Origin: a virus | Lineage: Duplodnaviria; Caudoviricetes | Length of the DNA stretch: 64,000 bases | Strand: one strand, 5' to 3' | Virus record (IMG/VR): IMGVR_UViG_3300028833_000068 | Coordinates: 96,001-160,000 of that record | In this document: positions 1-60,521 of the stretch, in pieces | Position numbering within the stretch: the stretch's first letter is position 1 | Layout of the letters: each line of letters opens with the position of its first letter | The notes under the pieces: model-generated | Told to the model about the DNA's origin: nothing | The model's input: only the letters and a program-made list of their open reading frames with translations | Database searches by the model: none | Position numbers and translations under genes: made by a program

Positions 1-302
1 TCATCAGCCCATCCATATTTCACATAATAACGAGATTGCTGATTCCCAGTTGTCTCATCATATGGCTCATCAATCCTCTCTTCCTTTGTTATTACTGAAA
101 GGTCATATAAACGCTTTCTAAGCTCTCCATTATGCAATCCCATAGATTTTAACCTATCATTGGGAACTGCGCCTATAGGGTCTTTAAAAATGTTCTTAAT
201 GAATTCTATGACATCTTCATAGAAATCTTGGAATGGAGGTTTTCTATTATCTTCCTCAAGCAATCTCCCATATGCTGACTCATTGATGTGTATTACCTTC
301 AT
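1..302 (-). CDS. Hypothetical protein with N-terminal INES-type tag (partial, runs off window start)
   Basis: Hand translation MKVIHINESAYGRLLEEDNRKPPFQDFY...; ATG overlaps the TAA of the upstream ORF; not in ORF track because it is truncated. Confidence 0.8.
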   Translation of the reverse strand, partial: MKVIHINESAYGRLLEEDNRKPPFQDFYEDVIEFIKNIFKDPIGAVPNDRLKSMGLHNGELRKRLYDLSVITKEERIDEPYDETTGNQQSRYYVKYGWAD

Positions 303-511
303 TACCTTGTAACTCCTCCCTTCCACGTGCTGCTACGATTCCATAAGGTTCTAAATAAATCCTCAATGACTTCTGCCGTAATCTCCTTGACAGCCTTCTT
401 AAAGTCTCTAGAATCATATGCAGAAGATATGCGGTTGGAAACAATTGCTTCAACCTCAGTCTTATTTATCTCCTCATTGATTATCTCTCTTATTCTTTCA
501 TCTGAAATCAT
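302..511 (-). CDS. Small hypothetical protein (IREIINEE tag-like N-terminus)
   Basis: 69 aa ORF, ATATTTATA motif about 16 nt upstream. Confidence 0.75.
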   Translation of the reverse strand: MISDERIREIINEEINKTEVEAIVSNRISSAYDSRDFKKAVKEITAEVIEDLFRTLWNRSSTWKGGVTR

Positions 512-526
512 AAAACATTATTTTTA

Positions 527-535
527 TATAAATAT
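527..535 (-). promoter_or_regulatory. ATATTTATA putative late promoter
   Basis: Motif recurs just upstream of about 15 transcription units. Confidence 0.6.
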
Positions 536-544
536 CATAATAAC

Positions 545-575
545 AAAAAAAAGGATGCTATTTCTAGCACCCTTT
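545..575 (-). terminator. Intrinsic terminator
   Basis: Minus strand AGGGTGCTA-gaaa-TAGCATCCT followed by a T-run. Confidence 0.7.
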
Positions 576-969
576 ATCTATTATCTAAGACCATCCATGT
601 ATACGACTTGCGCATATCCTTCTTTTCGTGAACCTCAAAACCAATTGACTTATAGAATTCAACCAATTGGTTATCTTTCATATAGTATTCATCTGAAGAA
701 TGAACAATAAGGTAGATGAACTTACCCTTTGTGTTCTCCTTAACGAGGTTTAGAAGTTGTCTTCCATATCCTTTTTTCCTTTCTCCAAACTTAGTAGTGA
801 AGTCTGAAAGATAGAATATGTCACAATCTGGAAATTCTAACCTCCTTTTCCTATCCAAACTAAATGTTTGAAAAGCGACCTCTAGACTTGATAGACATCT
901 GTTGGTCTGGTCATCAACTAACTTAAAATAAGTTGAGCCACAAGCATTTTTAACAACCAATTTTTCCAT
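574..969 (-). CDS. GNAT family N-acetyltransferase
   Basis: ERKKGYGRQLL acetyl-CoA motif A and LVEFYKSIGF motif B. Confidence 0.8.
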   Translation of the reverse strand: MEKLVVKNACGSTYFKLVDDQTNRCLSSLEVAFQTFSLDRKRRLEFPDCDIFYLSDFTTKFGERKKGYGRQLLNLVKENTKGKFIYLIVHSSDEYYMKDNQLVEFYKSIGFEVHEKKDMRKSYTWMVLDNR

Positions 970-1777: not shown

Positions 1778-1796
1778 ATAACTTATTTTTACGCTG

Positions 1797-1828: not shown

Positions 1829-1852
1829 TATCAATCCAACTTTTAACTTTTA

Positions 1853-2623
1853 TTAATATTTATTCTGTGAGGCTTTCTTTATCAATTCTTCAATATCCGT
1901 ATAAACTGTATATGGAAAATCTACATTAACATTAGAATAATGAAGTAACGTTACTCCATGTTCTTCGCAAAGTTTGATTTTCAATTCATCATTATTCTTC
2001 TGTAACTCAAAATGTTCCTTTCCGCCAAAATATTCAATTGGTTTAAAATGTTGCAAACCTTGACATTCTATAGCAACATTGTACTTAGGTAAATAGAAAT
2101 CAAATCTTTTAATTTTTTTCCCATCAACTAACCAATCAAAAACCTTTTGTTGTTCATATTCAATACCATTATTAATTAAAGCTTGTTCAACATTTCTCTC
2201 TAACTTAGATATTTTACAGTATGGACATCCTTGTTTGTGAGTTAAATGGTTATGTGGTGTCATTTCAAACTCCCTACCACATTCATTACATTTAATTACT
2301 AACTTAGTTTCTTTGTTTTTGTATACACTTTTAGAATAATCAAATTGCTCTCCGTGTAATGCTTTTGCTCTACTAGTAAAAACCTCTGTCGTTATTTTTT
2401 CTCTATTTGAACATACTCGGCATCCTCTTCCTAATAAGTGTTTTTCTGGAGTTTGCCAAAACTCACCGTGAATTGGGCATATTATGCAAACTTTTGTTCT
2501 AGCATTAACGTACTCAACTTTTGAATAATCATACTTGTCACCATGAATTTTCCTAGCACGTTCGATAAATTCATCCTTTGTAAAAGCAAACTTTTCCCTT
2601 AATATCTCATATTGTTTTTTCAT
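1853..2623 (-). CDS. Free-standing homing endonuclease (HGxKYDYS/Zn-finger repeats plus Vsr-like PD-(D/E)xK domain)
   Basis: KIHGDKYDYSKVEY..ICPIHGEFWQ repeats; C-terminal RFDFYLP..IECQG.QH. Confidence 0.85.
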   Translation of the reverse strand: MKKQYEILREKFAFTKDEFIERARKIHGDKYDYSKVEYVNARTKVCIICPIHGEFWQTPEKHLLGRGCRVCSNREKITTEVFTSRAKALHGEQFDYSKSVYKNKETKLVIKCNECGREFEMTPHNHLTHKQGCPYCKISKLERNVEQALINNGIEYEQQKVFDWLVDGKKIKRFDFYLPKYNVAIECQGLQHFKPIEYFGGKEHFELQKNNDELKIKLCEEHGVTLLHYSNVNVDFPYTVYTDIEELIKKASQNKY

Positions 2624-4488: not shown

Positions 4489-6858
4489 CTATTTCAAAAC
4501 TACCTTTGAAATATTATTCTCTTTCACAACTGAAATATGATGGTCACACATATCGTGAACCTCTTGATTATGACTAATCAAAATAAGAGTCTCATATTGT
4601 TTTGATATTTTTTCCAATAGATTTTTCATATTATCATAATTATCCTTTGAAACTCTACCCCACACCTCATCTAGAGTGCATATAGAACTTTTCGGGATTG
4701 TTGACATCTCAGACAATACTGACCTCAATGCTATTCCACTTGCTGTAAGTTCAAATCCGCTACCACTTGATAGATTAGAATAAACTCCATCCTTAATAAG
4801 GTTGAACATCACATCATTCTTTTGGTTTATTGCTACCTCTACATCAAAATCGCAAACATCACCCAATAACTTCGATAATTTTGCATTAATAATTGGAAGC
4901 GTCTTTCTAAGAACCATCTTTGAAATACCATTTTTACCAACAAGTTCAAGGTAAATCTTCCAGTTTCTTACTAACTTTTCCTCCTCATTAAGCTTCTTGA
5001 TGACTTCCTTTCTATCATCAATTTGCTTCTTGTGATTCTTTATATCTGCTTCATTCCTACTGATATAGGATGTATTCAATTCCTTAGTATTACGCTTATC
5101 TCGTATAAATACATCGTTATTACGAATTTGAATGTCAATTGAATTATTCTTGTCTATTGCCTCACTATTTTTATCATATTCTCTCTTAATATTTCTATTT
5201 TCTTGATATTCATTTCGAAGCTTTTCAACATTCACCTCCAATGCGGCTTTCTTAATCGTTAGATTATTTCTCTTGTTAAACAATTCTCTCTTATTCTTTA
5301 AGGAATTAACCTTGTTTGTTAACGCTTCTTTCTCTATTCCCATATTCTTGCCTTTCAGTAGAATTCCTTCAAGTTCCTTTGTTAATTCCTCAATTCTCTT
5401 CGAATTATCAACATTATCCAATTTTCTATGACAAGTTGGACAGATTTCACTTGATTTAAGATGTGTCACATTGTGCTCAATATTTTTATATTTCTCCCTT
5501 AATACTGCAATATCCGTATTAAGCTTGGATAATTCGCCTTGTAACTTATCATATTCTTCAATTGAAAAGTCAACATCACCAATTTCTGTAAGTTCCTTCG
5601 TAATCACTTCTATCTCTTCTTTTTTCTTAGTACCTTCAAATATATTCTCTTGCATCTTTCTCGTCAATGTAGTGATGTCAATCTTGAGAGTGTTATTATC
5701 AATAACTGTCTTTGAAGATAAAAGAGTCTCACGATTCTTCTCCAATGTTTCTATTTCCTTATCAAGAGTCTTGTTTTCTTTCTTGAACTTCTTATTTTCC
5801 TCTTCAAGGGTTTTAATTGTCAAGTTAAATGCCTCAATCTCTTGCATAAGAGTTTCCTCATTATATCTGTTTGACAATAGCATTGGTTTGACCTCAGAAT
5901 TGAATTTTTCCCTTGCTAGCTTGTCTTTTTCCTCAAGGGGTAATAAACCTATCCACCTTGATAATAAACGTCCTCTATCAGCCTCTTTCTTATTCACAAG
6001 GTCATCAAGGGTGGCATCTGTAACAGACATAATAAGGTCAAAATCACTCTCAATACCTATTGCATCCTTAATTGCTTTGTTGGTTTGTACTCCATTTTCC
6101 TCTTGCTGGTTTTCAACGTCATACTCTTCCAATTCTTCCTTGGAATCACCAACCAACTTATAGTATTCTACCTTCTGTGTTGTCTTACTCTTTTCACTTC
6201 TTCTCTCCAATGCTGGTCTTGATAACGTTCTCTTGATTATGTAATCAACACCATCAATGTTAATACAACCTTCTACAACAACATTGGTAGCCTTCGGTAA
6301 GTGTTTATTGAAGATTTTATCTTGAGTATCTACCTTGTTCGTTTTACCAAATAATAGGAAGTGAATGAGGTCAATGGATAATGTTGACTTACCAGCTTGA
6401 TTTTGACCACTTAAGGAAGTAAGTCCATGAATACTTGTAAAATCGAAATAGTTGCTGGTTCCATAACTGAGAAAATTATCCCATCGTATCCACTTGATAG
6501 AATATCTCCTATACTTGTCGTAAATTTGATAATCAATTTTTCCATTTATCTCTGCGTCTATTTTCTTTATTAAATCAAAATCGTAATTTGAAATGTTATT
6601 AGCTTTCAAGTAAGCTTCAAACAACTTTATTTGGAACTGTGGGTCTTGAATATTCTGAATAATGTCAGTATTCAAAGATATTTGTTCTCCATCTTCATCA
6701 ACCATCAAGAACTCTGGGATAACCTTAATTTTATCCTTTGGAAGATTATACTTCTTGCTGAACTTGGCGATAATTGATTTTTCCTTCTCCTTGGAATAAT
6801 CATATGGTGATACATTCCAATGTATGTTAACTCTAGATTTTTCCTTTAATTGAATCAT
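4489..6858 (-). CDS. sbcC: SbcC/Rad50 (gp46-like) recombination ATPase
   Basis: Walker A GQNQAGKST, coiled coil with CPTC zinc hook, SSGSGFE signature, Walker B TLDE, ISH loop. Confidence 0.9.
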   Translation of the reverse strand: MIQLKEKSRVNIHWNVSPYDYSKEKEKSIIAKFSKKYNLPKDKIKVIPEFLMVDEDGEQISLNTDIIQNIQDPQFQIKLFEAYLKANNISNYDFDLIKKIDAEINGKIDYQIYDKYRRYSIKWIRWDNFLSYGTSNYFDFTSIHGLTSLSGQNQAGKSTLSIDLIHFLLFGKTNKVDTQDKIFNKHLPKATNVVVEGCINIDGVDYIIKRTLSRPALERRSEKSKTTQKVEYYKLVGDSKEELEEYDVENQQEENGVQTNKAIKDAIGIESDFDLIMSVTDATLDDLVNKKEADRGRLLSRWIGLLPLEEKDKLAREKFNSEVKPMLLSNRYNEETLMQEIEAFNLTIKTLEEENKKFKKENKTLDKEIETLEKNRETLLSSKTVIDNNTLKIDITTLTRKMQENIFEGTKKKEEIEVITKELTEIGDVDFSIEEYDKLQGELSKLNTDIAVLREKYKNIEHNVTHLKSSEICPTCHRKLDNVDNSKRIEELTKELEGILLKGKNMGIEKEALTNKVNSLKNKRELFNKRNNLTIKKAALEVNVEKLRNEYQENRNIKREYDKNSEAIDKNNSIDIQIRNNDVFIRDKRNTKELNTSYISRNEADIKNHKKQIDDRKEVIKKLNEEEKLVRNWKIYLELVGKNGISKMVLRKTLPIINAKLSKLLGDVCDFDVEVAINQKNDVMFNLIKDGVYSNLSSGSGFELTASGIALRSVLSEMSTIPKSSICTLDEVWGRVSKDNYDNMKNLLEKISKQYETLILISHNQEVHDMCDHHISVVKENNISKVVLK

Positions 6859-12591: not shown

Positions 12592-13476
12592 TTAACTATT
12601 CGCCCAATTATTATTATCATTAGGGTCAATACCTTGACGAAGAAGGAACTTTCCAGTTACAATCTTATATTGTTTTGGGTCAAGGTCATAATCAATCAAG
12701 TCCCTTGTGAAATAGTCATACTTAAATTGTCTCAATTCATCAGAATCATATTCAGAATAATCCCAACCATTTACAATCTTATTGGTTGCCTTGTTAACAG
12801 CAAAGTGAGAATAACCTTGATTGTTTTGGAATGATTCTTCAGTTAAAGGCTTGTTATTATGCTTACTCTCAATATCTAACATTGCCTCATACCATTCACG
12901 AGTCTTTCCAGGATATTTCTTTCTGATTGCAATATTTCTACGCTCCCAATCAGCATTCGTCATTTTCTCTCTTTGTGTATAATAATCATCCATATATGCC
13001 TTGTCATCTAATTGGTCTGGAGAAAATGTCCATTCCTTCAAACACTTTTTAACTGACTTTCCAATCATTTGTTGGAGTTGACTTTCAGTTAATCTTATAA
13101 CTCTATTTTTCATCTTTATATTTCTTGATTCCTTTTTAACATATTTGCCATCTCTGTATTCAAGATTACCCTCATGCCAATCTTGAACATCGTTTGCTTG
13201 CCTATCAAGTCTTTTTAACTCTCCATTAGTATATGAGAAAGGCATCTTGGTTTTACCCAACATTCTATCCATTTCGTGACTATCCTTCCTCTGTTTAACC
13301 TTATCAACGCCAAACTGTTTATCACAAGTATCTATTGCATGGTCTCTGAAAGCTTCTGCTTGATTCTTTCTTCTTTCAGCTTCATATGTTGTTATATCTG
13401 GGCTGTTTGATAACTGCTTTGCTTTCGTTGCAGCAGCATCATAAGTCTTCCAATCCATTTCGTTCATATTAGCCAT
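12592..13476 (-). CDS. Tag-bearing modular hypothetical protein
   Basis: Internal RVIRLTESQLQQMIGKSVKKCLKE; start placed at MANMNE to avoid overlap. Confidence 0.75.
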   Translation of the reverse strand: MANMNEMDWKTYDAAATKAKQLSNSPDITTYEAERRKNQAEAFRDHAIDTCDKQFGVDKVKQRKDSHEMDRMLGKTKMPFSYTNGELKRLDRQANDVQDWHEGNLEYRDGKYVKKESRNIKMKNRVIRLTESQLQQMIGKSVKKCLKEWTFSPDQLDDKAYMDDYYTQREKMTNADWERRNIAIRKKYPGKTREWYEAMLDIESKHNNKPLTEESFQNNQGYSHFAVNKATNKIVNGWDYSEYDSDELRQFKYDYFTRDLIDYDLDPKQYKIVTGKFLLRQGIDPNDNNNWANS

Positions 13477-13480
13477 GTTC

Positions 13481-13750
13481 TTACCAATTTTTAATCCACT
13501 CAGCCTTCTGAAGTCCTTCATCTAGAGTGTCATTATCTGTACGATATAACTCTGCTGCTTTTGTTCCATCAGCATCATCAATATTGCTCTGAGCATTGTA
13601 ATCCTTGTCACCAAAGACACTACTTACCTTTGTAAGGTCATAGTAAGCACCAACAGCATAATGACCATTAGCACCATATACTACTGAATCTTCATCCAAT
13701 TTAGCTGCCATAGCCTTTAGGATGTCACTATCTTTAAATTTCTTTGTCAT
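13481..13750 (-). CDS. Hypothetical protein
   Basis: 89 aa; ATATTTATA at 13767-13775. Confidence 0.7.
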   Translation of the reverse strand: MTKKFKDSDILKAMAAKLDEDSVVYGANGHYAVGAYYDLTKVSSVFGDKDYNAQSNIDDADGTKAAELYRTDNDTLDEGLQKAEWIKNW

Positions 13751-24274: not shown

Positions 24275-24279
24275 TGTTA

Positions 24280-29588: not shown

Positions 29589-29600
29589 ATAAATATTTAT
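29589..29600. promoter_or_regulatory. Palindromic bidirectional late motif ATAAATATTTAT
   Basis: Perfect palindrome between divergent genes, giving ATATTTAT on both strands. Confidence 0.65.
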
Positions 29601-29621: not shown

Positions 29622-29870
29622 ATGAAAGTAATTAATTTAAATGAATCTCAGTTTGGAAGATTGTTTGAAGGTGTAACTGACGCAGACTTTGGAACAAGTT
29701 CAGTTCCAGAATTTGATAGTAAAGACCAAGTTGAACTTCAACCAACAATTACAGATAAAGGTGGTAGTCCTAAAAAGGCTAATCCAATAGACAGCAATGA
29801 GTTTGCTGATGAAATGTGCCCACAAGGATGGGGATTCATTGGCGGTAAAAATGCTTCAAGACCAGTTTAA
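29622..29870 (+). CDS. Small tag-bearing protein
   Basis: MKVINLNESQFGRLFE N-terminus. Confidence 0.75.
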   Translation: MKVINLNESQFGRLFEGVTDADFGTSSVPEFDSKDQVELQPTITDKGGSPKKANPIDSNEFADEMCPQGWGFIGGKNASRPV

Positions 29871-37018: not shown

Positions 37019-37036
37019 ATAAATATCGATATTTAT
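37019..37036. promoter_or_regulatory. Palindromic bidirectional late motif ATAAATATCGATATTTAT
   Basis: Perfect 18-bp palindrome between divergent tag-bearing genes. Confidence 0.65.
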
Positions 37037-37055: not shown

Positions 37056-37346
37056 ATGGATAGAAAATTAATCAGATTAACAGAAGCAGACCTCCATAGA
37101 ATTGTAAAAGAATCAGTGAATAGGATATTAAAGGAAGGTTATGTTGACGATACAATAGAAACTTATGGAAATCCACCATATACAGCCTCTTTCAAATATG
37201 AAGGTGATTGGACTCCTTGTAATAACCCTAATGATTTGGAAGATTATATGATTGATGTCGAGAATCACTATAACTCTACTATGGGAGAATGCGGAAGAGC
37301 AACAATATATAATAGCGATGGGGAAGATATATGGAGTCTTGGATGA
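37056..37346 (+). CDS. Small tag-bearing protein
   Basis: MDRKLIRLTEADLHRIVKESVNRILKE leader plus acidic domain. Confidence 0.8.
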   Translation: MDRKLIRLTEADLHRIVKESVNRILKEGYVDDTIETYGNPPYTASFKYEGDWTPCNNPNDLEDYMIDVENHYNSTMGECGRATIYNSDGEDIWSLG

Positions 37347-37382: not shown

Positions 37383-38138
37383 ATGAGTATAATAAATGAA
37401 TGGTCTCCGTTTCCTAAAAATAAGGATTGGAGAAAGAAAGGACAAGAAAAACCAAAGACTACCCCTAATCCAAACCCACATGATGATAAAAAAGGTTGGG
37501 GAACAAAGACTAATAAGGAAAAAGAAGACGATTGGTATCAAAACGAATCTAGAAATATGAATGAAGATAAATGGAAAGATGCATATAGAACATCTGATGG
37601 TAAAATTATACAGTACAGTAGACCATATCAAGGCAGTAAAAATAAAAACTTTAGAACAATAAATGCACCACAACCAAAACCAAGTAATGCATATAATGAT
37701 TTTGACGAAGGATGGAGAGATGAATATGCTGACAAAAATGGTAAAACTATTGCTCAATCAAGGATAAACCCAACAACCAAGAAAAGAGAATTTAGAATCC
37801 CAAAGAATGAGTCTGTTGTACCTAAGAAACTTATAAGATTAACAGAATCAGACCTTCATAGAATCATTAAAGAGTCTGTAAATAGAATTCTTAACGAAGA
37901 TTGGGCTGATGACCTTTGTCAAAAAATGAAAGGCGCACTTGGAACAGTCGGAAATCCATACCCACAAGGAAAATCTGAATTTGCTGTCCCTAGTATGGAT
38001 GAATTAACGCCAGAGGAACTTGAATTTGTGAGCAAAGCTGTAAATGGTATGGGAAGATGGGGTCGTCTTTGCATAGTCAGAGACGCAAGACGTAGTGGCA
38101 TGCCATTGGGAGAATATTTAATTCATAGAAAAGGGTAA
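37383..38138 (+). CDS. Tag-bearing modular protein
   Basis: Internal KKLIRLTESDLHRIIKESVNRILNE; duplicated W.D.Y....GK.I..SR module. Confidence 0.8.
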   Translation: MSIINEWSPFPKNKDWRKKGQEKPKTTPNPNPHDDKKGWGTKTNKEKEDDWYQNESRNMNEDKWKDAYRTSDGKIIQYSRPYQGSKNKNFRTINAPQPKPSNAYNDFDEGWRDEYADKNGKTIAQSRINPTTKKREFRIPKNESVVPKKLIRLTESDLHRIIKESVNRILNEDWADDLCQKMKGALGTVGNPYPQGKSEFAVPSMDELTPEELEFVSKAVNGMGRWGRLCIVRDARRSGMPLGEYLIHRKG

Positions 38139-43806: not shown

Positions 43807-45630
43807 TTATTTCTTATTCCAGCGTTTGGCGTTTTGAGCAAATACAGCCCTTTTACGAGTAAGTGGATTCTTTGAATGTGTTAGTTCTTCAGTAGATTTT
43901 CCAGTTGCCTTTTTGGTGGCATTAAACTTTCCTTTATTCTTTGGGTCAATCTCAATTGACTCTTCAACTTCATCCTTTATACCCAAACGTCTTCTAGCTT
44001 CTGCTCTTTCTTCTGGCGCAACTTGTTTCTTAAAACCCTTTCTGTGACCATGCGTTGACCTAATGAAACCCTTAGTGTTGGCTTGCTTTTGGGTATATTC
44101 CTTTATAATATTTATTGCAGCTTCCTTAACAACTTGTTTAAGCTCTTGTTCTGTGACTTTTATTGGCTTCTTGGATTCATCAATCCCATCACCTTCTTTC
44201 ATGCCTAGTTTTTTAAACATTTTCATTAAATATGGCTCTAACTTAGATGGCATTTTTGATGCTGGGCCGTATGTCTCTTCATATGGAAGCCAAGTACCGT
44301 CATTATAAAGTTCGACATCCCATTCACCATTATTCTGTACCTCTTTATAACTGTCTAGTAATGCCCAGTATGCACGACAATCAGCCATATCTAACACAGC
44401 AACCAATTGTCCATCACCATATTTCATTCTAGAAACTTTACGTCTAGTTTTTTCGGCTTCTCTACGTCTTTTAGCATCTTCCTTTCTCCTTAAAGCTGAA
44501 GATTCTTTTGCTTTAGTTTTTGCCTCTATTTTATCTTGCTCTGCTTTTTTTGATGCTAGGTCACTATATGTGTTTTGCCAGTTATCACTGTCTTTTACCC
44601 CATGATTAGGAAAATCAGTATCTGTTTGCTGTTTAAACCATTTATTCCTTTCATAAAAATCACCCATTGGGATTTGAGAATAATCAATCTCATTGATAAT
44701 CTGCATTGCAGCTTCCTTAATAACTTGTTTAAGTTCAGATTCGGTTAACTTAACTTGTTTATTTATTTCTTTATCTTCAATCACTCGATTATTCTTAGGC
44801 CATAACACAATGCAAGTATCATAACGAGAAAATGGGTCTTCAACAGTTCCACAAGCCATGCACTTGATATAACCACTAATCTTCATTCCATCATCGAACA
44901 TGATATTAATTGCATATTGCTTTGAACGTGGCATACCATCTTCAGCATAATCACAATAACCGCCATCTGATTCCATGCTGTCAGCATTTTCTATATGACC
45001 ACAAGGTTTCATTTCAACCTCACAACCCAATGAAGATATTGCTCTATAATAATCTGATATCGCTTGCCAATTCTCATCATGATAAACTCTAGAATCAATA
45101 CCATATTTCTTTACAATTCTATATATTTGATTGATTCTTGCTTGAATTGACTTTGGCTTTCTGCCCATAAACTTATCAACCTCATCGTGTCTTCCCAAGT
45201 TTTTTGGCATAGACTCTGTTAACTTCTCTCTAAGCCTATTTTTAAGCTCTTCCTTGAGCGTGAAGTTAACAAGGTATAACTTTCTCTGCATATCACCAAT
45301 AAAACTCTCACATTCGCTCTTAATGCCTATATAATTCTCACCCATCCCTTCAAGTTCCTTTAAGAAATCCTTGGAATCTGAGATGACATCTTCAACAAAT
45401 GCTTTCAAAGTGGTTTCATTAGCTTCTTCTGGAGTTAATGCATTCAACTTAATCTTTCCACTGATGGACTGTTCAACCTCAGACACCAAATCCTCAAAAT
45501 CAGAGATAGAACTTGCAATGTCATCACAAAGCTCATGTTGTGACATATTATCAGCACTCCAATGGAAATTCTTAATTTCTACCTTCCACTTCTCGCATTT
45601 ATTTATAAAACTTAATATTTTCTTATTCAT
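43807..45630 (-). CDS. Modular protein: ferritin/Dps-like (DUF5856-like) N-domain, two internal tags, basic C-terminal module
   Basis: IKNFHW..QHELCD..FEDLVSE..KLYL; VKLTESELKQVIKE and IKVTEQELKQVVKE; ATATTTATA at 45651-45659. Confidence 0.75.
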   Translation of the reverse strand: MNKKILSFINKCEKWKVEIKNFHWSADNMSQHELCDDIASSISDFEDLVSEVEQSISGKIKLNALTPEEANETTLKAFVEDVISDSKDFLKELEGMGENYIGIKSECESFIGDMQRKLYLVNFTLKEELKNRLREKLTESMPKNLGRHDEVDKFMGRKPKSIQARINQIYRIVKKYGIDSRVYHDENWQAISDYYRAISSLGCEVEMKPCGHIENADSMESDGGYCDYAEDGMPRSKQYAINIMFDDGMKISGYIKCMACGTVEDPFSRYDTCIVLWPKNNRVIEDKEINKQVKLTESELKQVIKEAAMQIINEIDYSQIPMGDFYERNKWFKQQTDTDFPNHGVKDSDNWQNTYSDLASKKAEQDKIEAKTKAKESSALRRKEDAKRRREAEKTRRKVSRMKYGDGQLVAVLDMADCRAYWALLDSYKEVQNNGEWDVELYNDGTWLPYEETYGPASKMPSKLEPYLMKMFKKLGMKEGDGIDESKKPIKVTEQELKQVVKEAAINIIKEYTQKQANTKGFIRSTHGHRKGFKKQVAPEERAEARRRLGIKDEVEESIEIDPKNKGKFNATKKATGKSTEELTHSKNPLTRKRAVFAQNAKRWNKK

Positions 45631-45712
45631 GACTTTTAATTTATTCTTCCTATAAATATCTTTTTATAACTAAATGTTTGCTTATTTTGATATAAATTTA
45701 TCTTTTATATAT

Positions 45713-48057: not shown

Positions 48058-48849
48058 TTAGGATTTATAATGTTTTTCCCAAACATCTAGGTTAAGTCCA
48101 CTATCAAGAACCACAATCGTTGGGTTTCCATCTCTGTTAACTATTCCAAAGTTTGCCAATTGAACAAAATCGCTCATTTTGGTATCTATTACTAACTTAA
48201 TAAACTCTTGTAACCATTGTGACTTATTTATTGCATCTTGGCAATTTTTATCATAATATTCTTCTCCCAAGACATAATTTGCTTCAATATACATTAATAT
48301 ATCAGTCATTGATAGTTCTGACATTTCATTTGGTTTTTTTATGTTGTCAAAATACTTATTAAAGCCTATTTTTTTATCACCATTATTTCTAGAAAAATCA
48401 TCACTACTTTGAACTGAATTTTGGTGATAAAAATGATAAAATGGTATTCCCAATATCTTTTCAAAATCCTCTTCAGTACAAGGTAATACTGCCTCTGAAA
48501 CCAAGAACGTGAAATTCTTATCATAGTTAAACACTCTAGCTAATAATGGAGAATCAACTACTTGGAATAGTGTATATTCTTGTAGGTTTTGGTCAATTCC
48601 AGCTTCATATCTTCTTCCGTATGCAAGTTTTAACACCAAGTTATCATTTAACGTGAATACGCATCTAGAGCTACCCATAGAATCTGGGTATCCTAACCAC
48701 CTTCTACAGTATTCCATCTGAGGAACACTATTGTCCTCGTTTGCAAATGCGCTATCAGCAATCATTGATAGTTCTTTAAGTGAAAACCCTTCTTGATATG
48801 CTTCAAACAACCTTTTTCTCTGTGATTCATTTATTTTAACTAATTTCAT
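48058..48849 (-). CDS. Protein-kinase-like fold protein with N-terminal tag
   Basis: MKLVKINESQRKRLFE; GSSRCVF, VLKLA, N..E, D....NFG, VVLDSG; ATATTTATA at 48870-48878. Confidence 0.7.
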   Translation of the reverse strand: MKLVKINESQRKRLFEAYQEGFSLKELSMIADSAFANEDNSVPQMEYCRRWLGYPDSMGSSRCVFTLNDNLVLKLAYGRRYEAGIDQNLQEYTLFQVVDSPLLARVFNYDKNFTFLVSEAVLPCTEEDFEKILGIPFYHFYHQNSVQSSDDFSRNNGDKKIGFNKYFDNIKKPNEMSELSMTDILMYIEANYVLGEEYYDKNCQDAINKSQWLQEFIKLVIDTKMSDFVQLANFGIVNRDGNPTIVVLDSGLNLDVWEKHYKS

Positions 48850-48953
48850 TACAATAATACAATTTATTATATAAATATCTCATTTTTTTCGTTTAAACAC
48901 TTGTTTTTTACAGAAATTTTCTTATATTTTATACGTGTATAAAATATAAGAAA

Positions 48954-50909
48954 ATGGCATTATCATTAAAAAAAATTGAAGAGGCATATAATAAGTTAAA
49001 GGAATACAAGGGCGATAACTCTTATATCACGAAACTCAAGAACACCATCATTACTTATCAAACTAGGTCAATGAATGATTTTGAGTCAGAATATGTCTTG
49101 TCCAATTGGGATAGAGAACCGTTCGAAGTTAACAAGATGGTTATGGTTGCTGATTGGTATGGGGAGAAACTACAAGAGAAGTGGGAGATTGAGTTTATTC
49201 CAAAGAAACTGAAGATTACTTGGTTCTTGGGTGAGACTGATACTCACTATCATTTCTATTGTATATATAGAAGGTCACAAGACAAGGCTGTTGAACTATT
49301 TGCACCAAAGAAGGGCATACTGACTGACTTCTTGATGGAAGACTACCATGATGTTGAGTTTGATGCCTCAAAGTATATAACAGAAAAGAGGATTCCATTA
49401 CCCCATCAAGTTGATGCTGCAAAGTTTATGCTTTCTAGAAAGAGGTGCATTATAGCAGATGAGATGGGAAGTGGCAAAAGCTGTAGCGCAATCTTAGCAG
49501 CACTTGAGGGTAATTACGAACATGTGCTGATTGTATGCCCAGCGTCAGTTAAGAAGACGTGGGAGAAAGAACTGAAGTTCTACGTTAAGGATGAAGATAT
49601 AACCATAGTTCAAGGTTCTAAATGGGATGATGCAAAGTTTACTATAATTAACTTTGATATTTTAGATAATTTTTATGAAATACCAGAACAGATAGTTAAA
49701 ACAAGTGAATTGAATGTTGATGACGATGGTAATGTTATTAGGGAGTATAAGGAGAAAAAAATCGTCTCTAGGAGCAAGAAAATCATTGATGAGGCAATGA
49801 GTAAGAGTCAATTGTTTCAGAGTCACTACGACCTTGTAATCATTGATGAGGCTCATAGATTGTCTAATAATACATCTGGGCGTTTTAAAATCATCTCTGA
49901 CCTTTTAAAAAGGCTTAATCCAAAAGGAATATTTGAGTTAACTGGCACCATGATTACCAATTCGACACAGAACTTAAGAAATCTTCTTAAACTGATTGAT
50001 TTGCCTATTGCAAAAGATTGGCAATACTTTATGGAAAGGTATTGTGGTGCAAAGTTCTTTTATAAGAAGAATGAAAGGAATGCATATACTGCAATGTTCT
50101 TAAAGGATAAGAAAAAAGCAACTTGGTATGACTTATCTCAAGATGAGAAGAAGGAGTTGGATGAACTATTGGAAAAGAAATGTAAGAAGCTTTGTATTCC
50201 AGGAGAAGATACCAATATGGAAGAACTTCAAGAGATTATTAAACCTTATTATCTTAGAAGACTTAAGACTGATTTTGCTACAATGCCAAAGAAAACTGTT
50301 AAGTGCCTTCATTATGAAATGACAGATGAAGAACAAAAATCATATGATGAATTATGGGATAAATATCTTGAACTTCAAGAGGATAAGGAAAAAACTGAAA
50401 AGAACAAAAAGTTAATTGAGGTTTCGCTCATGAGACAATGGCTTGCTGATAAAATGATAACAAGGACAATTGATTTAACTAGAAAATGTATCGATGTTGG
50501 AAGAAAGGTAATCATATTCTGTGCATATGACAATGAGATAAACAAGTTTATCGAGGAATTTGGCGATATTTGTGTGTATCATAATGGCAAGCTAAATGAG
50601 AAAAAGAAAAATGAGGCTGTTGAGAAATTCCAAAATGATGATAATATAAAAGTTTTTATAGGTAATATAGTTAGTTCAGGCGTGGGTATAACTCTTACGA
50701 AAGCATCAGTTGTTATTTTTAACTCATTTTCTTTTACCCCTAGTGATTGTAAACAATGTGAAGACCGTGTGTATCGTATTGGGCAAAATAAAAACTGTAC
50801 AATTTATTATCAATCATTTAATGGAACTTACTTTGATAGAATGTTAGAGATTATACATAATAAAGAATACGTAATAAATAAAATAGTTTTAACTGAGAAA
50901 GAAAAATAA
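48954..50909 (+). CDS. SNF2-family (SF2) helicase/translocase
   Basis: PHQ, ADEMGSGKS, IIDEAH, LTGT, LRRLK, GVGITL, QCEDRVYRIGQ. Confidence 0.92.
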   Translation: MALSLKKIEEAYNKLKEYKGDNSYITKLKNTIITYQTRSMNDFESEYVLSNWDREPFEVNKMVMVADWYGEKLQEKWEIEFIPKKLKITWFLGETDTHYHFYCIYRRSQDKAVELFAPKKGILTDFLMEDYHDVEFDASKYITEKRIPLPHQVDAAKFMLSRKRCIIADEMGSGKSCSAILAALEGNYEHVLIVCPASVKKTWEKELKFYVKDEDITIVQGSKWDDAKFTIINFDILDNFYEIPEQIVKTSELNVDDDGNVIREYKEKKIVSRSKKIIDEAMSKSQLFQSHYDLVIIDEAHRLSNNTSGRFKIISDLLKRLNPKGIFELTGTMITNSTQNLRNLLKLIDLPIAKDWQYFMERYCGAKFFYKKNERNAYTAMFLKDKKKATWYDLSQDEKKELDELLEKKCKKLCIPGEDTNMEELQEIIKPYYLRRLKTDFATMPKKTVKCLHYEMTDEEQKSYDELWDKYLELQEDKEKTEKNKKLIEVSLMRQWLADKMITRTIDLTRKCIDVGRKVIIFCAYDNEINKFIEEFGDICVYHNGKLNEKKKNEAVEKFQNDDNIKVFIGNIVSSGVGITLTKASVVIFNSFSFTPSDCKQCEDRVYRIGQNKNCTIYYQSFNGTYFDRMLEIIHNKEYVINKIVLTEKEK

Positions 50910-52226: not shown

Positions 52227-53147
52227 ATGGTAACAGAGCAATTTATTGAACGAGCCAAAAAAGTTCATGGCGATAAATACGATTATTCAAAGGTAGAATA
52301 TAAAAACAACCATACAAAAGTTTGTATAATCTGTCCTATTCATGGCGAATTCTGGATGACCCCAAATAATCATTTACAAGGACACGGATGTAAACCTTGT
52401 GGGTATAATAAAAATGCAGAAAATCAAACATTGTCATTAGAACAATTCATAGAAAAAGCTAAAAAGATTCATGGGGAAAAATATGATTATTCAAAAGTAA
52501 AATATTTTGGTATGCACACAAGGATTTGTATTATCTGTCCTAAACACGGTGAATTTTGGCAACTTCCGTATGACCATTTACAAGGAAAGGGGTGTAAAAA
52601 ATGTGGGTATGAAAGTAATTGTTTAACTAATGAACAATTCATAGAAAAAGCTAAAAAAATTCATGGAGAAAAATATGATTATTCGAAAATAATTTATAAA
52701 GATAATAATACGCCTGTTTGTATTATATGTAAAGAACACGGTGAATTCTGGCAAACACCTCATACGCATTTAAAAGGTTACGGTTGTAATAAATGTAGTG
52801 AAACTACATTAGAAAATAAATGTAGACTACTGTTAGAAAAAAACCACATTGAATATATTTCTCAAAAAAAATTTGATTGGCTGGGTAACCAAAGATTAGA
52901 TTTTTATTTGCCAAATCATAATATTGGAATAGAATGTCAAGGTGAACAACATTACAGGCCAATAGAATTTTTTGGTGGTTTAAAAACATTTAATAAAATA
53001 AAAAATAATGATATAAAAAAAAGCAATAAATGTAAAGAAAATAAAATTAAATTAATATATTTTTCTGAAGAAAGGCACAATAGTTTTAATGGTGTTAAAA
53101 GTTATTACGATAATAACATTCTAAAAGAATTAATTAGTTATGATTGA
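52227..53147 (+). CDS. Free-standing homing endonuclease (three repeats plus Vsr-like domain), intact
   Basis: Three FIE.AKK.HG.KYDYSK..C..HGEFW repeats; RLDFYLP..IECQGEQH; ATATTTATA at 52181. Confidence 0.85.
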   Translation: MVTEQFIERAKKVHGDKYDYSKVEYKNNHTKVCIICPIHGEFWMTPNNHLQGHGCKPCGYNKNAENQTLSLEQFIEKAKKIHGEKYDYSKVKYFGMHTRICIICPKHGEFWQLPYDHLQGKGCKKCGYESNCLTNEQFIEKAKKIHGEKYDYSKIIYKDNNTPVCIICKEHGEFWQTPHTHLKGYGCNKCSETTLENKCRLLLEKNHIEYISQKKFDWLGNQRLDFYLPNHNIGIECQGEQHYRPIEFFGGLKTFNKIKNNDIKKSNKCKENKIKLIYFSEERHNSFNGVKSYYDNNILKELISYD

Positions 53148-53394
53148 ACCAAAATTCGGTAAAGGAGATTATATAATTAACCGCACTGCTGGCGATATGG
53201 GCATAATCAAAGGAATAACCAAAAAAGGTTATTACCAATTCAAAGAATATTATGATGCAATGTTTAACGAATTGAAGGATTTAAAAAATCTAAATTATGA
53301 TTTGCAAGTGAATTACCAAAAATTCTTTGAGTTATGTACAGATGAAGAAAAGAAAAAATTTGACGAAATCATAAAAGAAAAAGGAGGGAATTAA
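53140..53394 (+). CDS. Hypothetical protein
   Basis: 84 aa, PKFGKGDYI SH3-like start. Confidence 0.65.
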   Translation: MIEPKFGKGDYIINRTAGDMGIIKGITKKGYYQFKEYYDAMFNELKDLKNLNYDLQVNYQKFFELCTDEEKKKFDEIIKEKGGN

Positions 53395-53765
53395 TTTCTC
53401 TCCTTTAATTTATCTTTTTCGCTATGAAATCCTCTAGCGTATATATCCGATTTTTTTAAATCGCCATTTCGTTTTTGTTTAGCGTAATCCATAACATCAG
53501 AATAGCCATTATAATCTCCATTAAAAGCTTTTTTACCAGCTAATCTTCCTAATAAATATTGACCATCTTCAGTTTCACCAACCTCTTTTAATACTTTTTT
53601 TACTGATTCTTTTATAACCCAATGAAGCTCACTTTCAGTAATTCGTATTGGCTTTTTTGATTCCATTTGTACATTGTTTTCTTCTTGTTGTTTTGATGCT
53701 TGATACATTTTTCCATATCCCATAGCTTGTGCTAATTCAAATCCATTTTTAAAAGGTAGTCCCAT
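53391..53765 (-). CDS. Tag-bearing small protein
   Basis: Internal KPIRITESELHWVIKESVKKVLKE. Confidence 0.8.
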   Translation of the reverse strand: MGLPFKNGFELAQAMGYGKMYQASKQQEENNVQMESKKPIRITESELHWVIKESVKKVLKEVGETEDGQYLLGRLAGKKAFNGDYNGYSDVMDYAKQKRNGDLKKSDIYARGFHSEKDKLKERN

Positions 53766-58432: not shown

Positions 58433-58485
58433 AGAAGATATTTATATTAAAGAAAAAACATGAACAATTTATTTAAAACATAATC

Positions 58486-58525
58486 AAAAGCGCACTAGTT
58501 CTTTCATGGACTAATGCGCTTTTTT
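58486..58525 (+). terminator. Terminator-like hairpin directly upstream of phoH
   Basis: AAAAGCGCA.TAGT..ACTA.TGCGCTTTTTT. Confidence 0.65.
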
Positions 58526-58540
58526 CTTAAAATCAATTTT

Positions 58541-59347
58541 ATGGGTAAGAAAAAAAATTTACAAGGTTTAGATGAACTTGAAAAAGAATTCATTGAACAA
58601 AAGATGAAAGGAGACAGCGCTCTCAACTATCTTACATCAGAAGGGTTATGTACGAAACTTAAAACACTAGGTTATAAATTAGATATTAAATGTAAAACAG
58701 AAACTCAAAAACAGTTCTTAAAACAATTAAAAGATAAGAAAAAACAAATTTGTTTTGGTATTGGTTCTCCTGGAACAGGAAAGTCTTACATGTCTCTAGC
58801 ATATGCGTTAAAAGAGTTAAAAGAAGGTAACTACTCAAGCATCATAATGATGATACCTACAGCGCCAGCTGGTGGATTGGATTTGAACCTTGGTTATCTA
58901 AAGGGGGATTTAGATACCAAAATTAGGCCTTATCTCGAATGTGATGAACAAACCGTTGCAAAAATTTTGAAAAATAGTGGTAATATGGATTCATTTATGA
59001 TTGCACAATCATTGGTTAATAATGGATATATTAAATATGAATTTATTAATTTTGCATTGGGAAAAACATTTGATGACGCTTTAATACTTGTAAATGAAGC
59101 AGAACAATATACTGCCCCTAATATGCGATTAATTTTAACTAGATTGGGTGAAAATAGTAAGATGATAATTACTGGTGATATTTTACAAACGAATCGTAGA
59201 GATATTGTAATAAAAAAATCAGAAAGTGGACTCTCATATGCAATTGACCACATTGGAGATATGGAAGAGGTTAGTGTAACTGAATTTGGAAGAGAAGACA
59301 TTGTTAGAAACCCATTAATTACAAAAATACTTGATAATTGGGATTGA
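58541..59347 (+). CDS. phoH: PhoH-like ATPase
   Basis: GSPGTGKS, LGYLKGDL..K..PY, GKTF, NEAEQ, LTRLGENSK..ITGD..Q, DIVRNP. Confidence 0.92.
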   Translation: MGKKKNLQGLDELEKEFIEQKMKGDSALNYLTSEGLCTKLKTLGYKLDIKCKTETQKQFLKQLKDKKKQICFGIGSPGTGKSYMSLAYALKELKEGNYSSIIMMIPTAPAGGLDLNLGYLKGDLDTKIRPYLECDEQTVAKILKNSGNMDSFMIAQSLVNNGYIKYEFINFALGKTFDDALILVNEAEQYTAPNMRLILTRLGENSKMIITGDILQTNRRDIVIKKSESGLSYAIDHIGDMEEVSVTEFGREDIVRNPLITKILDNWD

Positions 59348-59366
59348 TGTAATATTTATATAAGTT

Positions 59367-60521
59367 ATGGATAAAACATTTAAGCCAACAGTAGAATGGA
59401 TGACAGCTAAATATGCTGAAATGAATGACCAATTATTTAGAGGTGAACTTGGGGAATGTAACTTCAAGGTCTTTACTACTGGCAAGGGCAGTGAAGGTGG
59501 TACATTGGGGTGGTTCAAGATAACTAGTCGTGGTATTCGTGTTGATAGATACAGTAGAAGAATGTTTAAAATTAGTAATTGGGGTACAAAAATATTTGTT
59601 AATAAAGATAATTTCACTACTATGTGTAGTCCAGCTATTGAATTAAATGGTAATTATACTGGTACTGAACATGGATTCTTAGCTACACTAGTACATGAAA
59701 TGTGCCACTATTACACATATATGAATGGTTATTGTCCAAGACAAGGACATGGTAGGGAATTCAAAGATATTGGATATGTTGTGTCAAGTAGGTCAAATGG
59801 AATGTTTACAATACAAAGATTGGCTTCAGCAGAACAAATGTCAGAACTTGAGCTTAGTGCTGAAATGAAAGCCAAGAGAGAAAAAAGACTTTCAAATAGA
59901 AAAGCATCAGTTACTGCAATATTTGTGTTCACTAAACAAGGACAAGTTAAACTTACAATAACTTCAAGCCCAAATCTAATTAATATGATTTCGACAAGCG
60001 AAGAAGGAAGAGGTAATAACGTTGTAACATCAAATGATGCAAATGTAATAGAATTCTTATTCTCAAAAGGATATGAGAAAAACATGAGGACTTGGAGATA
60101 TTGGAGTCTTGAAGGAAAACCTTGGATTGATGAACTGAAAGAAATGTTGCCAGAAACTAGTGGTGAAACTATTGGAGTTAAAAGAAATGCTGCGCAACAA
60201 GTTCAACCTAAGCAGCAGTCAAAACAGCCTAAGAGAATATTTAGCATACAAACAAGTAATGGAAGATTTGAACATGATGCTGATGTATATTATTCATTAC
60301 TTAATGCTTTAAAGGAAAGATTCCCTAAAACAAGCGAAGAGGCAATTATGAAATTAATAAATAACCCAGCAAACTATAGAATGGTTGAAAATAAAATGAA
60401 TACAAAGAATATTTTAAAAGAAGTCATTGAGGAATTCATGCAAAATGATATGGAAAATAATGATTCAGTTGAAATAAACCCAAACATGAATTTAGGGCTT
60501 GAATCACCTTTAGAGGCTTAA
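59367..60521 (+). CDS. SprT-like zinc metalloprotease with C-terminal tag
   Basis: N..LF.GEL, TLVHEMCH, GHGREF; ends MVENKMNTKNILKEVIEEF; ATATTTATA at 59352-59360. Confidence 0.85.
   Translation: MDKTFKPTVEWMTAKYAEMNDQLFRGELGECNFKVFTTGKGSEGGTLGWFKITSRGIRVDRYSRRMFKISNWGTKIFVNKDNFTTMCSPAIELNGNYTGTEHGFLATLVHEMCHYYTYMNGYCPRQGHGREFKDIGYVVSSRSNGMFTIQRLASAEQMSELELSAEMKAKREKRLSNRKASVTAIFVFTKQGQVKLTITSSPNLINMISTSEEGRGNNVVTSNDANVIEFLFSKGYEKNMRTWRYWSLEGKPWIDELKEMLPETSGETIGVKRNAAQQVQPKQQSKQPKRIFSIQTSNGRFEHDADVYYSLLNALKERFPKTSEEAIMKLINNPANYRMVENKMNTKNILKEVIEEFMQNDMENNDSVEINPNMNLGLESPLEA

What the first reader, a model, noticed from the sequence alone, without database searches (positions are those of the whole stretch)
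1..60521. Mobile peptide tag on about a dozen unrelated late proteins: candidate capsid-loading and effector-delivery system
Seen: one amphipathic peptide recurs in otherwise unrelated ORFs at N-terminal, internal or C-terminal positions. Long form: KLIRLTEADLHRIVKESVNRILKE (37056), KLIRLTESDLHRIIKESVNRILNE (37383), RVIRLTESQLQQMIGKSVKKCLKE (12592), PIRITESELHWVIKESVKKVLKE (53391), and VKLTESELKQVIKEAAMQIINE plus IKVTEQELKQVVKEAAINIIKE (43807). Short form: MKVIHINESAYGRLLE (302), MKVINLNESQFGRLFE (29622), MKLVKINESQRKRLFE (48058), KRVYINESK (35917), KKIYITEKQ (29874). Half forms: VKSIIRETI (26944), ISKLITETINE (35923), KNILKEVIEE (59367). The 37056 and 37383 copies differ mostly at synonymous positions, so the peptide is under protein-level selection. 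These genes sit in ATATTTAT-headed units, and I saw no copy in the replication enzymes. Known: T4 internal proteins use a short capsid-targeting leader, and T4 gp21 cleaves after (L/I)-X-E. Inference: the tag binds the prohead core, is cut at its hydrophobic-X-E sites, and releases the attached domains for injection. That would be a plug-in cargo address, and I know of no formal description of this motif.
Basis: partly seen in the sequence, partly recalled or inferred. Interest (0 to 1): 0.88.

Follow-up and report, generated by a model that had tools for sequence, protein, structure and literature searches.

The report
Portable capsid-address-like peptide in jumbo phages
A 24-residue peptide is attached to many otherwise unrelated small proteins of a group of uncultured giant gut or rumen phages, and its sequence, gene positions and promoter suggest, without proving, that it is a cleavable address label that loads cargo proteins into the phage head, as phage T4's much shorter label does.

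Summary
The core observation holds. A profile of the long form (K-x-I-R-L-T-E-S-D-L-H-x-I-V-K-E-S-V-x-R-I-L-x-E) finds 6 copies in 5 window ORFs and 10 in 9 ORFs on the 171-kb contig. With the tag masked, these proteins share nothing, and synonymous sites are saturated, so selection acts on the protein.

Three N-terminal short forms are probably truncated relatives (hhalign P 1.5e-5). The other short and half forms are not separable from chance.

The tag is widespread: 6,226 protein-cluster representatives, and 11-20 copies in each of five 317-413-kb phage genomes. No Pfam, PHROG, PDB or literature record was found.

Four indirect lines support the capsid reading:
- Most relatives encode a T4 gp21-type prohead protease.
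- 17 of 67 independent tag loci lie within 3 kb of protease, portal, terminase, capsid or scaffold-candidate genes (about 5% expected).
- Tagged genes share the ATATTTAT upstream motif with the head and tail genes.
- The tag has three near-invariant Glu, almost never Asp, each with an aliphatic residue two positions before it. Conservation stops at the last Glu.

Packaging, cleavage and injection are untested, and the window's own contig lacks the head module.

Verdict: a real, undescribed module, most likely a long, repeatable variant of the T4 capsid targeting sequence (confidence about 0.5).

The parts
37065..37136 (+). Long-form tag KLIRLTEADLHRIVKESVNRILKE at residues 4-27 of the 96-aa ORF 37056-37346
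   Evidence: HMM 52.7 bits; translation checked
37827..37898 (+). Long-form tag, internal (residues 149-172) in the 251-aa ORF 37383-38138, after a K/N/E/P/W-rich N-terminal part
   Evidence: HMM 53.6 bits; translation checked
13033..13104 (-). Long-form tag, internal (residues 140-163) in the 309-aa ORF 12592-13521. A Met sits 3 residues before it, where N-terminal tags start
   Evidence: HMM 49.4 bits; Met retention statistics
53583..53654 (-). Long-form tag (residues 38-61) in the 124-aa ORF 53391-53765, followed directly by a confidently predicted three-helix module
   Evidence: HMM 53.7 bits. AlphaFold2: N-terminus 1-39 disordered, tag helix 44-64 at pLDDT about 60, residues 66-123 at pLDDT about 90
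44689..44760 (-). First tag (residues 291-314) of the conserved 607-aa double-tag protein (ORF 43807-45630)
   Evidence: HMM 45.5 bits. AlphaFold2: isolated helix in a low-confidence stretch
44098..44169 (-). Second tag (residues 488-511) of the same 607-aa protein, ahead of a basic C-terminal tail
   Evidence: HMM 43.0 bits
43807..45630 (-). Gene of the 607-aa double-tag protein: Dps-like four-helix bundle (1-135), alpha/beta domain (160-280), then two tags in a disordered tail. Relatives of 540-740 aa occur on many contigs of 200-425 kb
   Evidence: Foldseek best hits are Dps proteins at E 2e-3 to 3e-2 (weak); PHROG 858 at E 0.004
255..302 (-). Short form MKVIHINESAYGRLLE at the N-terminus of a 127-aa ORF that runs off the window start
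   Evidence: hhalign short against long form P 1.5e-5
29622..29669 (+). Short form MKVINLNESQFGRLFE at the N-terminus of the 82-aa ORF 29622-29870
48802..48849 (-). Short form MKLVKINESQRKRLFE at the N-terminus of the 263-aa ORF 48058-48849. The G002 orthologue lies between portal and prohead protease
   Evidence: PHROG 4301
37029..37036 (+). ATATTTAT promoter-like motif 27 nt upstream of the 37056/37383 tagged unit
   Evidence: the same motif heads head and tail genes in relatives
45652..45659 (-). ATATTTAT motif 29 nt upstream of the 607-aa double-tag gene
29593..29600 (+). ATATTTAT motif 29 nt upstream of the short-form gene 29622
48871..48878 (-). ATATTTAT motif 29 nt upstream of the short-form gene 48058-48849

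Best explanation
The tag is a portable protein module of 24-27 residues: a basic start, a short hydrophobic strand (K-K-x-I-R-L), then an amphipathic helix (T-E-S-D-L-H-x-I-V-K-E-S-V-x-R-I-L-x-E). It marks a clade of 300-410-kb jumbo phages whose head genes are of the T4 type.

Most likely it works like the T4 capsid targeting sequence. The proposed steps are:
1. During late gene expression the tag docks its carrier protein onto the assembling prohead core.
2. The gp21-type prohead protease then cuts after one or more of the tag's three Glu sites (L-T-E, V/I-K-E, L/I-x-E).
3. The attached variable domain is left inside the head.

Internal and double tags would make cleavable polyproteins.

SHOWN: the module exists, is selected at the protein level, is the only thing its carriers share, is very widespread, is enriched in head-morphogenesis modules, and shares the structural-gene promoter motif.

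INFERRED: binding to the core, cleavage, packaging, and any ejection into the host.
For: - The module is real and portable and is conserved at the protein level.
- Spread: 6,226 cluster representatives at E <= 1e-3, and 11-20 copies in each of five genomes of 317-413 kb.
- A Peptidase_S77 prohead protease was found in 5 of 6 near-complete relatives. No HK97-type S78 protease was found in the five genomes searched.
- In G001, G003 and G005 a tagged ORF lies immediately downstream of the protease. Others sit between portal and protease and upstream of the terminase.
- 24 of 80 tag loci (17 of 67 after dereplication) have a head gene within 3 kb, against about 5% expected; p = 2e-8.
- ATATTTAT heads the portal, TerL, MCP, scaffold-candidate, protease, sheath and fibre-like genes. 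It also heads 10 of 17 tagged genes against 40 of 454 others in G003 (p = 8e-7), and 4 of 9 against 23 of 216 in G000 (p = 0.014).
- The logo of 397 unique tags has Glu at 98%, 90% and 94% with Asp at about 0-1%, L/V/I two residues before each, mostly Ser or Ala after the first two Glu, and information content falling from 3.1 to 0.6 bits right after the last Glu.
- A third of internal tags keep a Met in the column where N-terminal tags start, against a 3% background. This looks like fused tagged units.
- In the 607-aa protein both tags are isolated helices in disordered stretches.
- Precedent: T4 internal proteins share only a CTS; gp21 cuts after L/I-X-E; Asp at that site blocks processing (PMC3012670, PMC9026906, PMC5694885).
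Against: - There is no direct evidence of packaging or cleavage. These phages are uncultured, and no cultured phage in the INPHARED collection has the tag.
- The window's own contig lacks the protease and head module, so the link rests on relatives.
- About 70% of tags lie far from head genes, in islands of small ORFs.
- G004 (95% complete by estimate) has tags but no detectable S77 protease.
- The tag is 2-3 times longer than the T4 CTS and is often internal or C-terminal.
- Any amphipathic helix tends to place acidic residues two positions after hydrophobic ones, so the L/I/V-x-E pattern is not proof of a cleavage site.
- In the 124-aa protein the tag helix runs straight into the folded three-helix module and could be part of that fold.
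- The resemblance of the scaffold candidate's N-terminus to the tag is not significant (P = 0.018).
Confidence: 0.5

Rival explanations
1. The tag is a shared assembly helix of small structural core or scaffold-accessory proteins. It lets them co-assemble with each other or with the scaffold, and it is neither removed nor used as an address for cargo. The carriers are building parts of the prohead, not packaged effectors.
For: - Tagged ORFs sit where T4 has the small core proteins gp67, gp68 and gp22.
- The G003 and G000 orthologue next to the protease has an Ala/Gly/Asn/Gln-rich helical tail that looks scaffold-like.
- The scaffold candidate upstream of the capsid gene has a conserved N-terminal [IV][KR]ES[L] hexamer like the tag centre. 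That hexamer occurs only 3 times outside tagged proteins in G003.
- Proteins with two tags could cross-link.
Against: - Most tagged proteins are unrelated orphan ORFs lying in islands of small ORFs outside the head module. That is unusual for structural parts.
- The strict Glu (almost never Asp) at three sites, and the sharp end of conservation at the last Glu, point to a processing site.
- In T4 the core proteins are themselves cleaved, so this reading overlaps with the best explanation rather than excluding it.
Confidence: 0.2
2. The tag is a late-expressed protein-protein or protein-nucleic-acid interaction module unrelated to the capsid. It might dock on a host hub protein or a phage compartment, or drive oligomerisation of host-takeover or anti-defence proteins. 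Its nearness to head genes would then only reflect where accessory genes tend to insert.
For: - About 70% of tags are away from head genes, in islands of small orphan ORFs.
- In the window they sit beside PolB, primase and glycosyltransferase genes.
- The strand-plus-helix shape resembles the first half of many small binding folds.
- Weak sub-threshold matches to AAA_lid_3 helices (12.9 bits against a 27.2-bit cut-off).
Against: - The enrichment near head genes is about five-fold after dereplication (six-fold before it), and the slots are conserved in several genomes: downstream of the protease, between portal and protease, and upstream of TerL.
- The promoter motif is shared with the structural genes.
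- The Glu-specific pattern has no obvious reason under this reading.
Confidence: 0.2
3. The recurrence comes from chance, low-complexity sequence, or a repeated DNA element (a regulatory site or mobile-element end) that happens to be translated.
For: The genome is AT-rich (33% GC), and the peptide is rich in K, E, I and L, which are common in such genomes.
Against: - HMM scores are 43-54 bits, against less than 7 for the next ORF, and the maximum in shuffled proteomes is 7.1 bits.
- Synonymous sites are nearly saturated, and Ser switches between AGY and TCN codons at the same position.
- Thousands of database proteins carry the tag.
Confidence: 0.01

Closest known systems
Capsid targeting sequence (CTS) of phage T4 internal proteins IPI, IPII, IPIII and Alt (Mullaney and Black 1996; reviewed in PMC3012670 and PMC9026906)
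   Same: - A short conserved leader is the only thing shared by diverse, otherwise unrelated proteins.
- The phage has a gp21-type prohead protease.
- The leader ends in an aliphatic-x-Glu site.
- The carrier genes lie partly in and partly away from the head module.
   Different: - No sequence similarity to the T4 leader.
- It is 24-27 residues long rather than about 10.
- It holds three candidate Glu sites instead of one.
- It is often internal, C-terminal or doubled in one protein.
- It is found in thousands of protein clusters from uncultured 300-410-kb phages.
- Its function is untested.
Long N-terminal propeptides of head and ejection proteins in the giant phages phiKZ, 201phi2-1 and SPN3US, cut by gp21-like proteases at S/A/G-X-E or A-X-E (PMC5694885, PMC10052503)
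   Same: - Jumbo phages with a diverged T4-type protease that cuts after Glu.
- Propeptides thought to target proteins to the prohead.
- SPN3US paralogues gp53 and gp54 share an identical 15-residue N-terminus (MANFVKSKLARESVE) whose ...RESV... stretch resembles the tag's ...KESV... centre.
   Different: Those propeptides are long (about 80-130 residues), and PMC5694885 reports a shared leader only for the paralogues gp53 and gp54. Here a single highly conserved module is reused on 11-20 proteins per genome and across a whole clade.
Encapsulin cargo-loading peptides (from general knowledge, not tested here)
   Same: A short portable peptide addresses diverse cargo to the inside of an HK97-fold shell.
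   Different: - Those peptides are usually C-terminal and are not cleaved.
- They bind the shell protein directly.
- They have no sequence relation to this tag.
- They are not part of a virus.

Membership tests
T4-type capsid targeting sequence / prohead-core propeptide | A short conserved leader is the only similarity among otherwise unrelated carrier proteins | tested here: met
   Tag-masked all-against-all BLASTP of the 9 carriers gives no hit. The HMM finds 10 copies on the contig.
T4-type capsid targeting sequence / prohead-core propeptide | The leader ends in the protease site, aliphatic-X-Glu, with Glu required | tested here: met
   At the sequence level only. The last tag residue is Glu in 94% of 397 tags, with L or I two residues before it in 91% and Asp in about 1%. 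Conservation collapses after it.
T4-type capsid targeting sequence / prohead-core propeptide | The phage encodes a gp21-type (Peptidase_S77) prohead protease | tested here: inconclusive
   Found in G001, G002, G003, G005, G006 and G007. Not found in the window's own 53%-complete contig or in G004.
T4-type capsid targeting sequence / prohead-core propeptide | N-terminal position on the carrier | tested here: inconclusive
   Of 274 copies in the 150 best database proteins, 131 are N-terminal, 129 internal and 14 C-terminal. A third of internal copies keep the start Met. In the window, 1 of 6 copies is N-terminal.
T4-type capsid targeting sequence / prohead-core propeptide | Sequence homology to the T4 or T-even leader | tested here: not met
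   tblastn of a tagged protein against 50,697 phage records found only one weak hit, in an uncultured 484-kb phage, and none in T4-like phages. There is no PDB relative.
T4-type capsid targeting sequence / prohead-core propeptide | Carriers are found in proheads or virions and the leader is removed by the protease | not testable with these tools
   The phages are uncultured and no proteomics data are available.
T4-type capsid targeting sequence / prohead-core propeptide | Genetic or regulatory association with head morphogenesis | tested here: met
   17 of 67 independent loci lie within 3 kb of head genes, p = 2e-8. The ATATTTAT motif is shared, p = 8e-7.
Any curated protein family (Pfam-A, PHROGs) | A match above the family threshold that covers the tag | tested here: not met
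   No Pfam or PHROG family covers the tag in the 10 window proteins or in the 150 database carriers. AAA_lid_3 scores 12.9 bits against a 27.2-bit cut-off.

The most novel reading that the evidence does not exclude
The tag is a general, plug-in capsid-cargo address used across a large clade of gut and rumen jumbo phages, probably of Bacteroidales hosts. Any protein that carries it would be loaded into the prohead, released by Glu-specific cleavage, and in many cases ejected into the host. If so, the whole packaged and ejected protein set of uncultured giant phages could be read from sequence alone: 11-20 proteins per genome and thousands of cargo families.
Probability: 0.4. Interest if true: 0.82.

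Novelty: new variant of a known kind. Interest (0 to 1): 0.66.

Why it matters
- If the tag is a capsid address, it gives a sequence-only way to list the proteins that uncultured jumbo phages carry in their heads. These are the likely first-strike anti-defence and takeover factors, which are otherwise orphan ORFs with no annotation.
- It would extend the T4 targeting principle to a large, abundant and distant clade, in a richer form: repeated, internal and polyprotein-like.
- It would offer a ready-made tag for loading foreign proteins into large capsids.
- Even if the function differs, a peptide this conserved, carried by 6,226 protein-cluster representatives and covered by no curated family in Pfam or PHROGs, deserves a family definition.

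Tried and rejected
- A DNA-level repeat or regulatory element was rejected, because synonymous sites are saturated.
- Chance or compositional bias was rejected by shuffles.
- Known families: the Pfam, PHROG, PDB sequence and ESM Atlas searches gave nothing useful.
- A literature search for the peptide strings found only unrelated words. A jumbo-phage literature search found no description of the motif, and the Jug-phage paper PMC12880540 has no 'N-terminal' term and no mention of the motif in the passages read.
- Cultured phages: a tblastn search found none with the tag. LR756508.1 has only two weak copies.
- Tag in the scaffold candidate or capsid protein N-termini: hhalign is not significant (P = 0.018 and 0.18).
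- Faster evolution of tagged genes between G001 and G005: only a trend, Mann-Whitney p = 0.18 with n = 6.
- Linking the short forms through the HMM alone failed (4 bits). Only the profile-profile comparison links them.
- The Foldseek match of the 607-aa protein's N-terminus to Dps is weak (E 2e-3, TM by target 0.45-0.66), so I treat it as a lead only.
Full report
WHAT THE WINDOW IS

The window is bases 96,001-160,000 of a 171,411-bp IMG/VR virus contig that CheckV rates 53% complete. GC content is about 33%. The window encodes these recognisable genes:
- a family-B DNA polymerase (38591-41020, continued in 41901-43478)
- a primase (13812-14846)
- an SNF2 helicase (48954-50909)
- an SbcC-like ATPase (4489-6858)
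- PhoH and SprT-like proteins
- two glycosyltransferases
- an amidase
- large tail-fibre-like proteins (19517-24274, 24280-26460)

About 43% of the contig's genes have homologues at roughly 30-60% identity in G003, a complete 348,671-bp phage genome with terminal repeats.

THE OBSERVATION

An HMM built from the six long-form peptides recovers exactly those six copies in five window ORFs at 43-54 bits, and nothing else scores above 7 bits. On the whole contig it finds ten copies in nine ORFs. Iteration adds none. The coordinates and translations were checked.

With the tags masked, the nine carriers have no BLASTP similarity to each other. Conservation is at the protein level: 53% of identical residues use different codons, against 58% expected from independent codon draws. 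Serine switches between AGY and TCN codons at the same position.

The three N-terminal short forms (M-K-V/L-I/V-x-I/L-N-E-S-x-x-x-R-L-F/L-E) align to the first 17 residues of the long form by profile-profile comparison (79% probability, P 1.5e-5). The HMM alone cannot separate them from noise. One of them, 48058, belongs to a conserved full-length family. The remaining short and half forms are not significant individually. The core hexamer is enriched overall, at 20 against 2.3 in shuffles. The honest count for the window is therefore five solid and three probable carriers.

HOW WIDESPREAD IT IS

A 32-column profile of the window's six copies was searched against 1.84 billion cluster representatives. 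It gave 6,226 proteins at E <= 1e-3 and 572 at E <= 1e-10.

Among the best 150 proteins, 116 have two copies and 4 have three. Of their 274 copies, 131 are N-terminal, 129 internal and 14 C-terminal. These carriers have almost no Pfam domains.

Five IMG/VR genomes of 317-413 kb, rated 95-100% complete, carry 11-20 matches each. No Pfam or PHROG family, solved structure or paper describes the tag. No cultured phage in INPHARED has it.

Tags turn up in 13 of 301 genomes of the family that contains a Prevotella MAG. In an order of Eubacteriales they turn up only in the seed genome, 1 of 301. This points to Bacteroidales hosts. Genome size and host resemble the recently described Jug phages, which have ruminant relatives (PMC12880540). 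I could not test that relationship.

WHAT LINKS IT TO THE HEAD

First, relatives encode a T4 gp21-type prohead protease (Peptidase_S77): G001, G002, G003, G005, G006 and G007. No HK97-type S78 protease was found in the five genomes searched.

Second, the G001 head module reads as follows: TerL, portal, a 537-aa ORF, a tagged 164-aa ORF, a 145-aa ORF, a tagged 110-aa ORF, then on the other strand the protease and a tagged 132-aa ORF, then an acidic 497-aa scaffold candidate, the major capsid protein and the tail sheath. A further tagged 86-aa ORF lies upstream of TerL. G005 and G003 have the same pattern. In G003 the tagged ORF directly after the protease is the orthologue of a tagged ORF lying just upstream of this window (35.9% identity over 170 residues). 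These slots correspond to T4 genes 67, 68 and 22.

Third, I took 80 tag-centred loci from IMG/VR. Of these, 24 have a protease, portal, TerL, capsid or scaffold-candidate gene within 3 kb. After dereplication the figure is 17 of 67, against about 5% expected (binomial p = 2e-8).

Fourth, ATATTTAT lying 15-60 nt upstream of the start codon is the commonest upstream 8-mer in G003. It heads the portal, TerL, capsid, scaffold-candidate, protease and fibre-like genes. It also heads 10 of 17 tagged genes against 40 of 454 others (Fisher p = 8e-7). In the window's own contig the figures are 4 of 9 against 23 of 216 (p = 0.014). The PolB, primase and SNF2 helicase genes lack the motif in both G000 and G003.

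WHAT THE PEPTIDE ITSELF SAYS

In a logo of 397 unique tags, three Glu are present in 98%, 90% and 94% of copies, and Asp is virtually never used. Each Glu has L/V, V/I or L/I two residues before it. The first two are mostly followed by Ser or Ala. Information content falls from 3.1 to 0.6 bits immediately after the third Glu.

T4 gp21 cuts after L/I-X-E, and an Asp at that position of the T4 targeting sequence blocks processing while still allowing targeting (PMC9026906). Giant-phage homologues also cut after Glu (PMC5694885).

A third of internal tags keep a Met in the column where N-terminal tags begin, against a 3% background. This looks like fusion of tagged units. Such fusions would be harmless if each tag is a processing site.

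AlphaFold2 predicts the following for the window's conserved 607-aa double-tag protein:
- a Dps-like four-helix bundle
- an alpha/beta domain
- a long low-confidence tail in which both tags are isolated helices

In the 124-aa protein a disordered N-terminus precedes the tag helix (pLDDT about 60). That helix runs into a confident three-helix module. This second model is compatible with a detachable tag but does not prove it.

MECHANISM AND RIVALS

The best-supported reading, at about 0.5, is a long, repeatable analogue of the T4 capsid targeting sequence. It docks carriers on the prohead core and is then cut by the S77 protease, leaving the variable domains in the head. [quoted passage not shown] That is the same architecture.

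A close rival, at 0.2, is that the tag is an uncleaved assembly helix of small structural core proteins. A more distant rival, at 0.2, is a late-expressed interaction module unrelated to capsids. Chance or a DNA-level element is excluded.

WEAK POINTS

- There is no proteomic or biochemical evidence.
- The head module is missing from the window's contig.
- About 70% of tags lie far from head genes.
- G004 has tags but no detectable S77 protease.
- Amphipathic helices naturally give hydrophobic-x-acidic patterns.
- The tag-like stretch in the scaffold candidate is not significant.
- Faster divergence of tagged genes is only a trend.
- Injection and effector roles are pure inference.

VERDICT

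As a kind, it is a new variant of a known mechanism.

The same idea was noted by first-stage readers in overlapping windows of this genome. Those notes are not independent evidence.

Noticed in passing
window 38591-43478: The family-B DNA polymerase is split. 38591-41020 (809 aa) holds the exonuclease and the start of the polymerase domain. 41901-43478 (525 aa) is 89% identical to residues 959-1466 of an unsplit 1466-aa polymerase on a related contig (L002). Two endonuclease-like ORFs lie between them (41017-41220; 41338-41904, DUF559).
   Followed up: partly
window 1853-2623 (-), 52227-53147 (+), fragment 41017-41220 (+): A multi-copy family of about 300 aa (N-terminus ...KVHGDKYDYSKV..., weak DUF723 and treble-clef zinc-finger hits) has at least eight copies on the contig. 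All of them hit one 560-aa G003 gene next to its polymerase. It looks like a homing-endonuclease family.
   Followed up: partly
L088:9810-11633 (G003 265809-267632): The prohead protease gene of the related complete phage G003 is 607 aa because it carries an intein with a LAGLIDADG domain, inserted after ...ALGE|C (Pfam Intein_splicing, LAGLIDADG_3, Peptidase_S77).
   Followed up: partly
window 37029, 29593, 45652 (-), 48871 (-) and others; G003 and G001 head modules: ATATTTAT lying 15-60 nt upstream of start codons is the commonest upstream 8-mer. It heads essentially all head and tail structural genes in relatives, so it is a candidate late-promoter element of this clade. The overlapping TATTTATA, the second commonest upstream 8-mer in G003, is the reverse complement of the T4 late promoter TATAAATA (the T4 consensus is from memory).
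   Followed up: partly
window 43807-45630 (-): The conserved 607-aa double-tag protein starts with a Dps-like four-helix bundle (weak Foldseek and PHROG support) and ends in a strongly basic tail. A DNA-binding internal head protein is an attractive but untested idea.
   Followed up: partly
window 53391-53582 (-), C-terminal part of ORF 53391-53765; proteins P0066, P0120, P0073, P0033, P0219: A module of about 56 residues and three helices (G-x-T-x-x-G-x-x-L-G-R-L-A-A-R-K ... N-G-Y-x-D-V-x-D-Y-A-K) always follows a tag directly and recurs in different multi-tag proteins. Many top database tags continue with ...NEIGDT..., which suggests a larger tag-plus-module unit.
   Followed up: partly
L086:7677-9170 (G001 77676-79169) and orthologues in G002, G003 and G005: The gene just upstream of the major capsid gene encodes a protein of 475-521 aa with a helical N-terminus, a conserved [IV][KR]ES[L] hexamer near residue 10-17, and a long Asp/Glu/Gly-rich acidic stretch. 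It is a likely scaffolding protein with no Pfam or PHROG family.
   Followed up: partly
window 19517-26460 (-): The 1585-aa ORF ends in a Peptidase_S74 (endosialidase chaperone) domain and the 726-aa ORF has a Fib_succ_major domain. They are probably tail fibres, and the second fits a Bacteroidota or Fibrobacter-type host surface.
   Followed up: no
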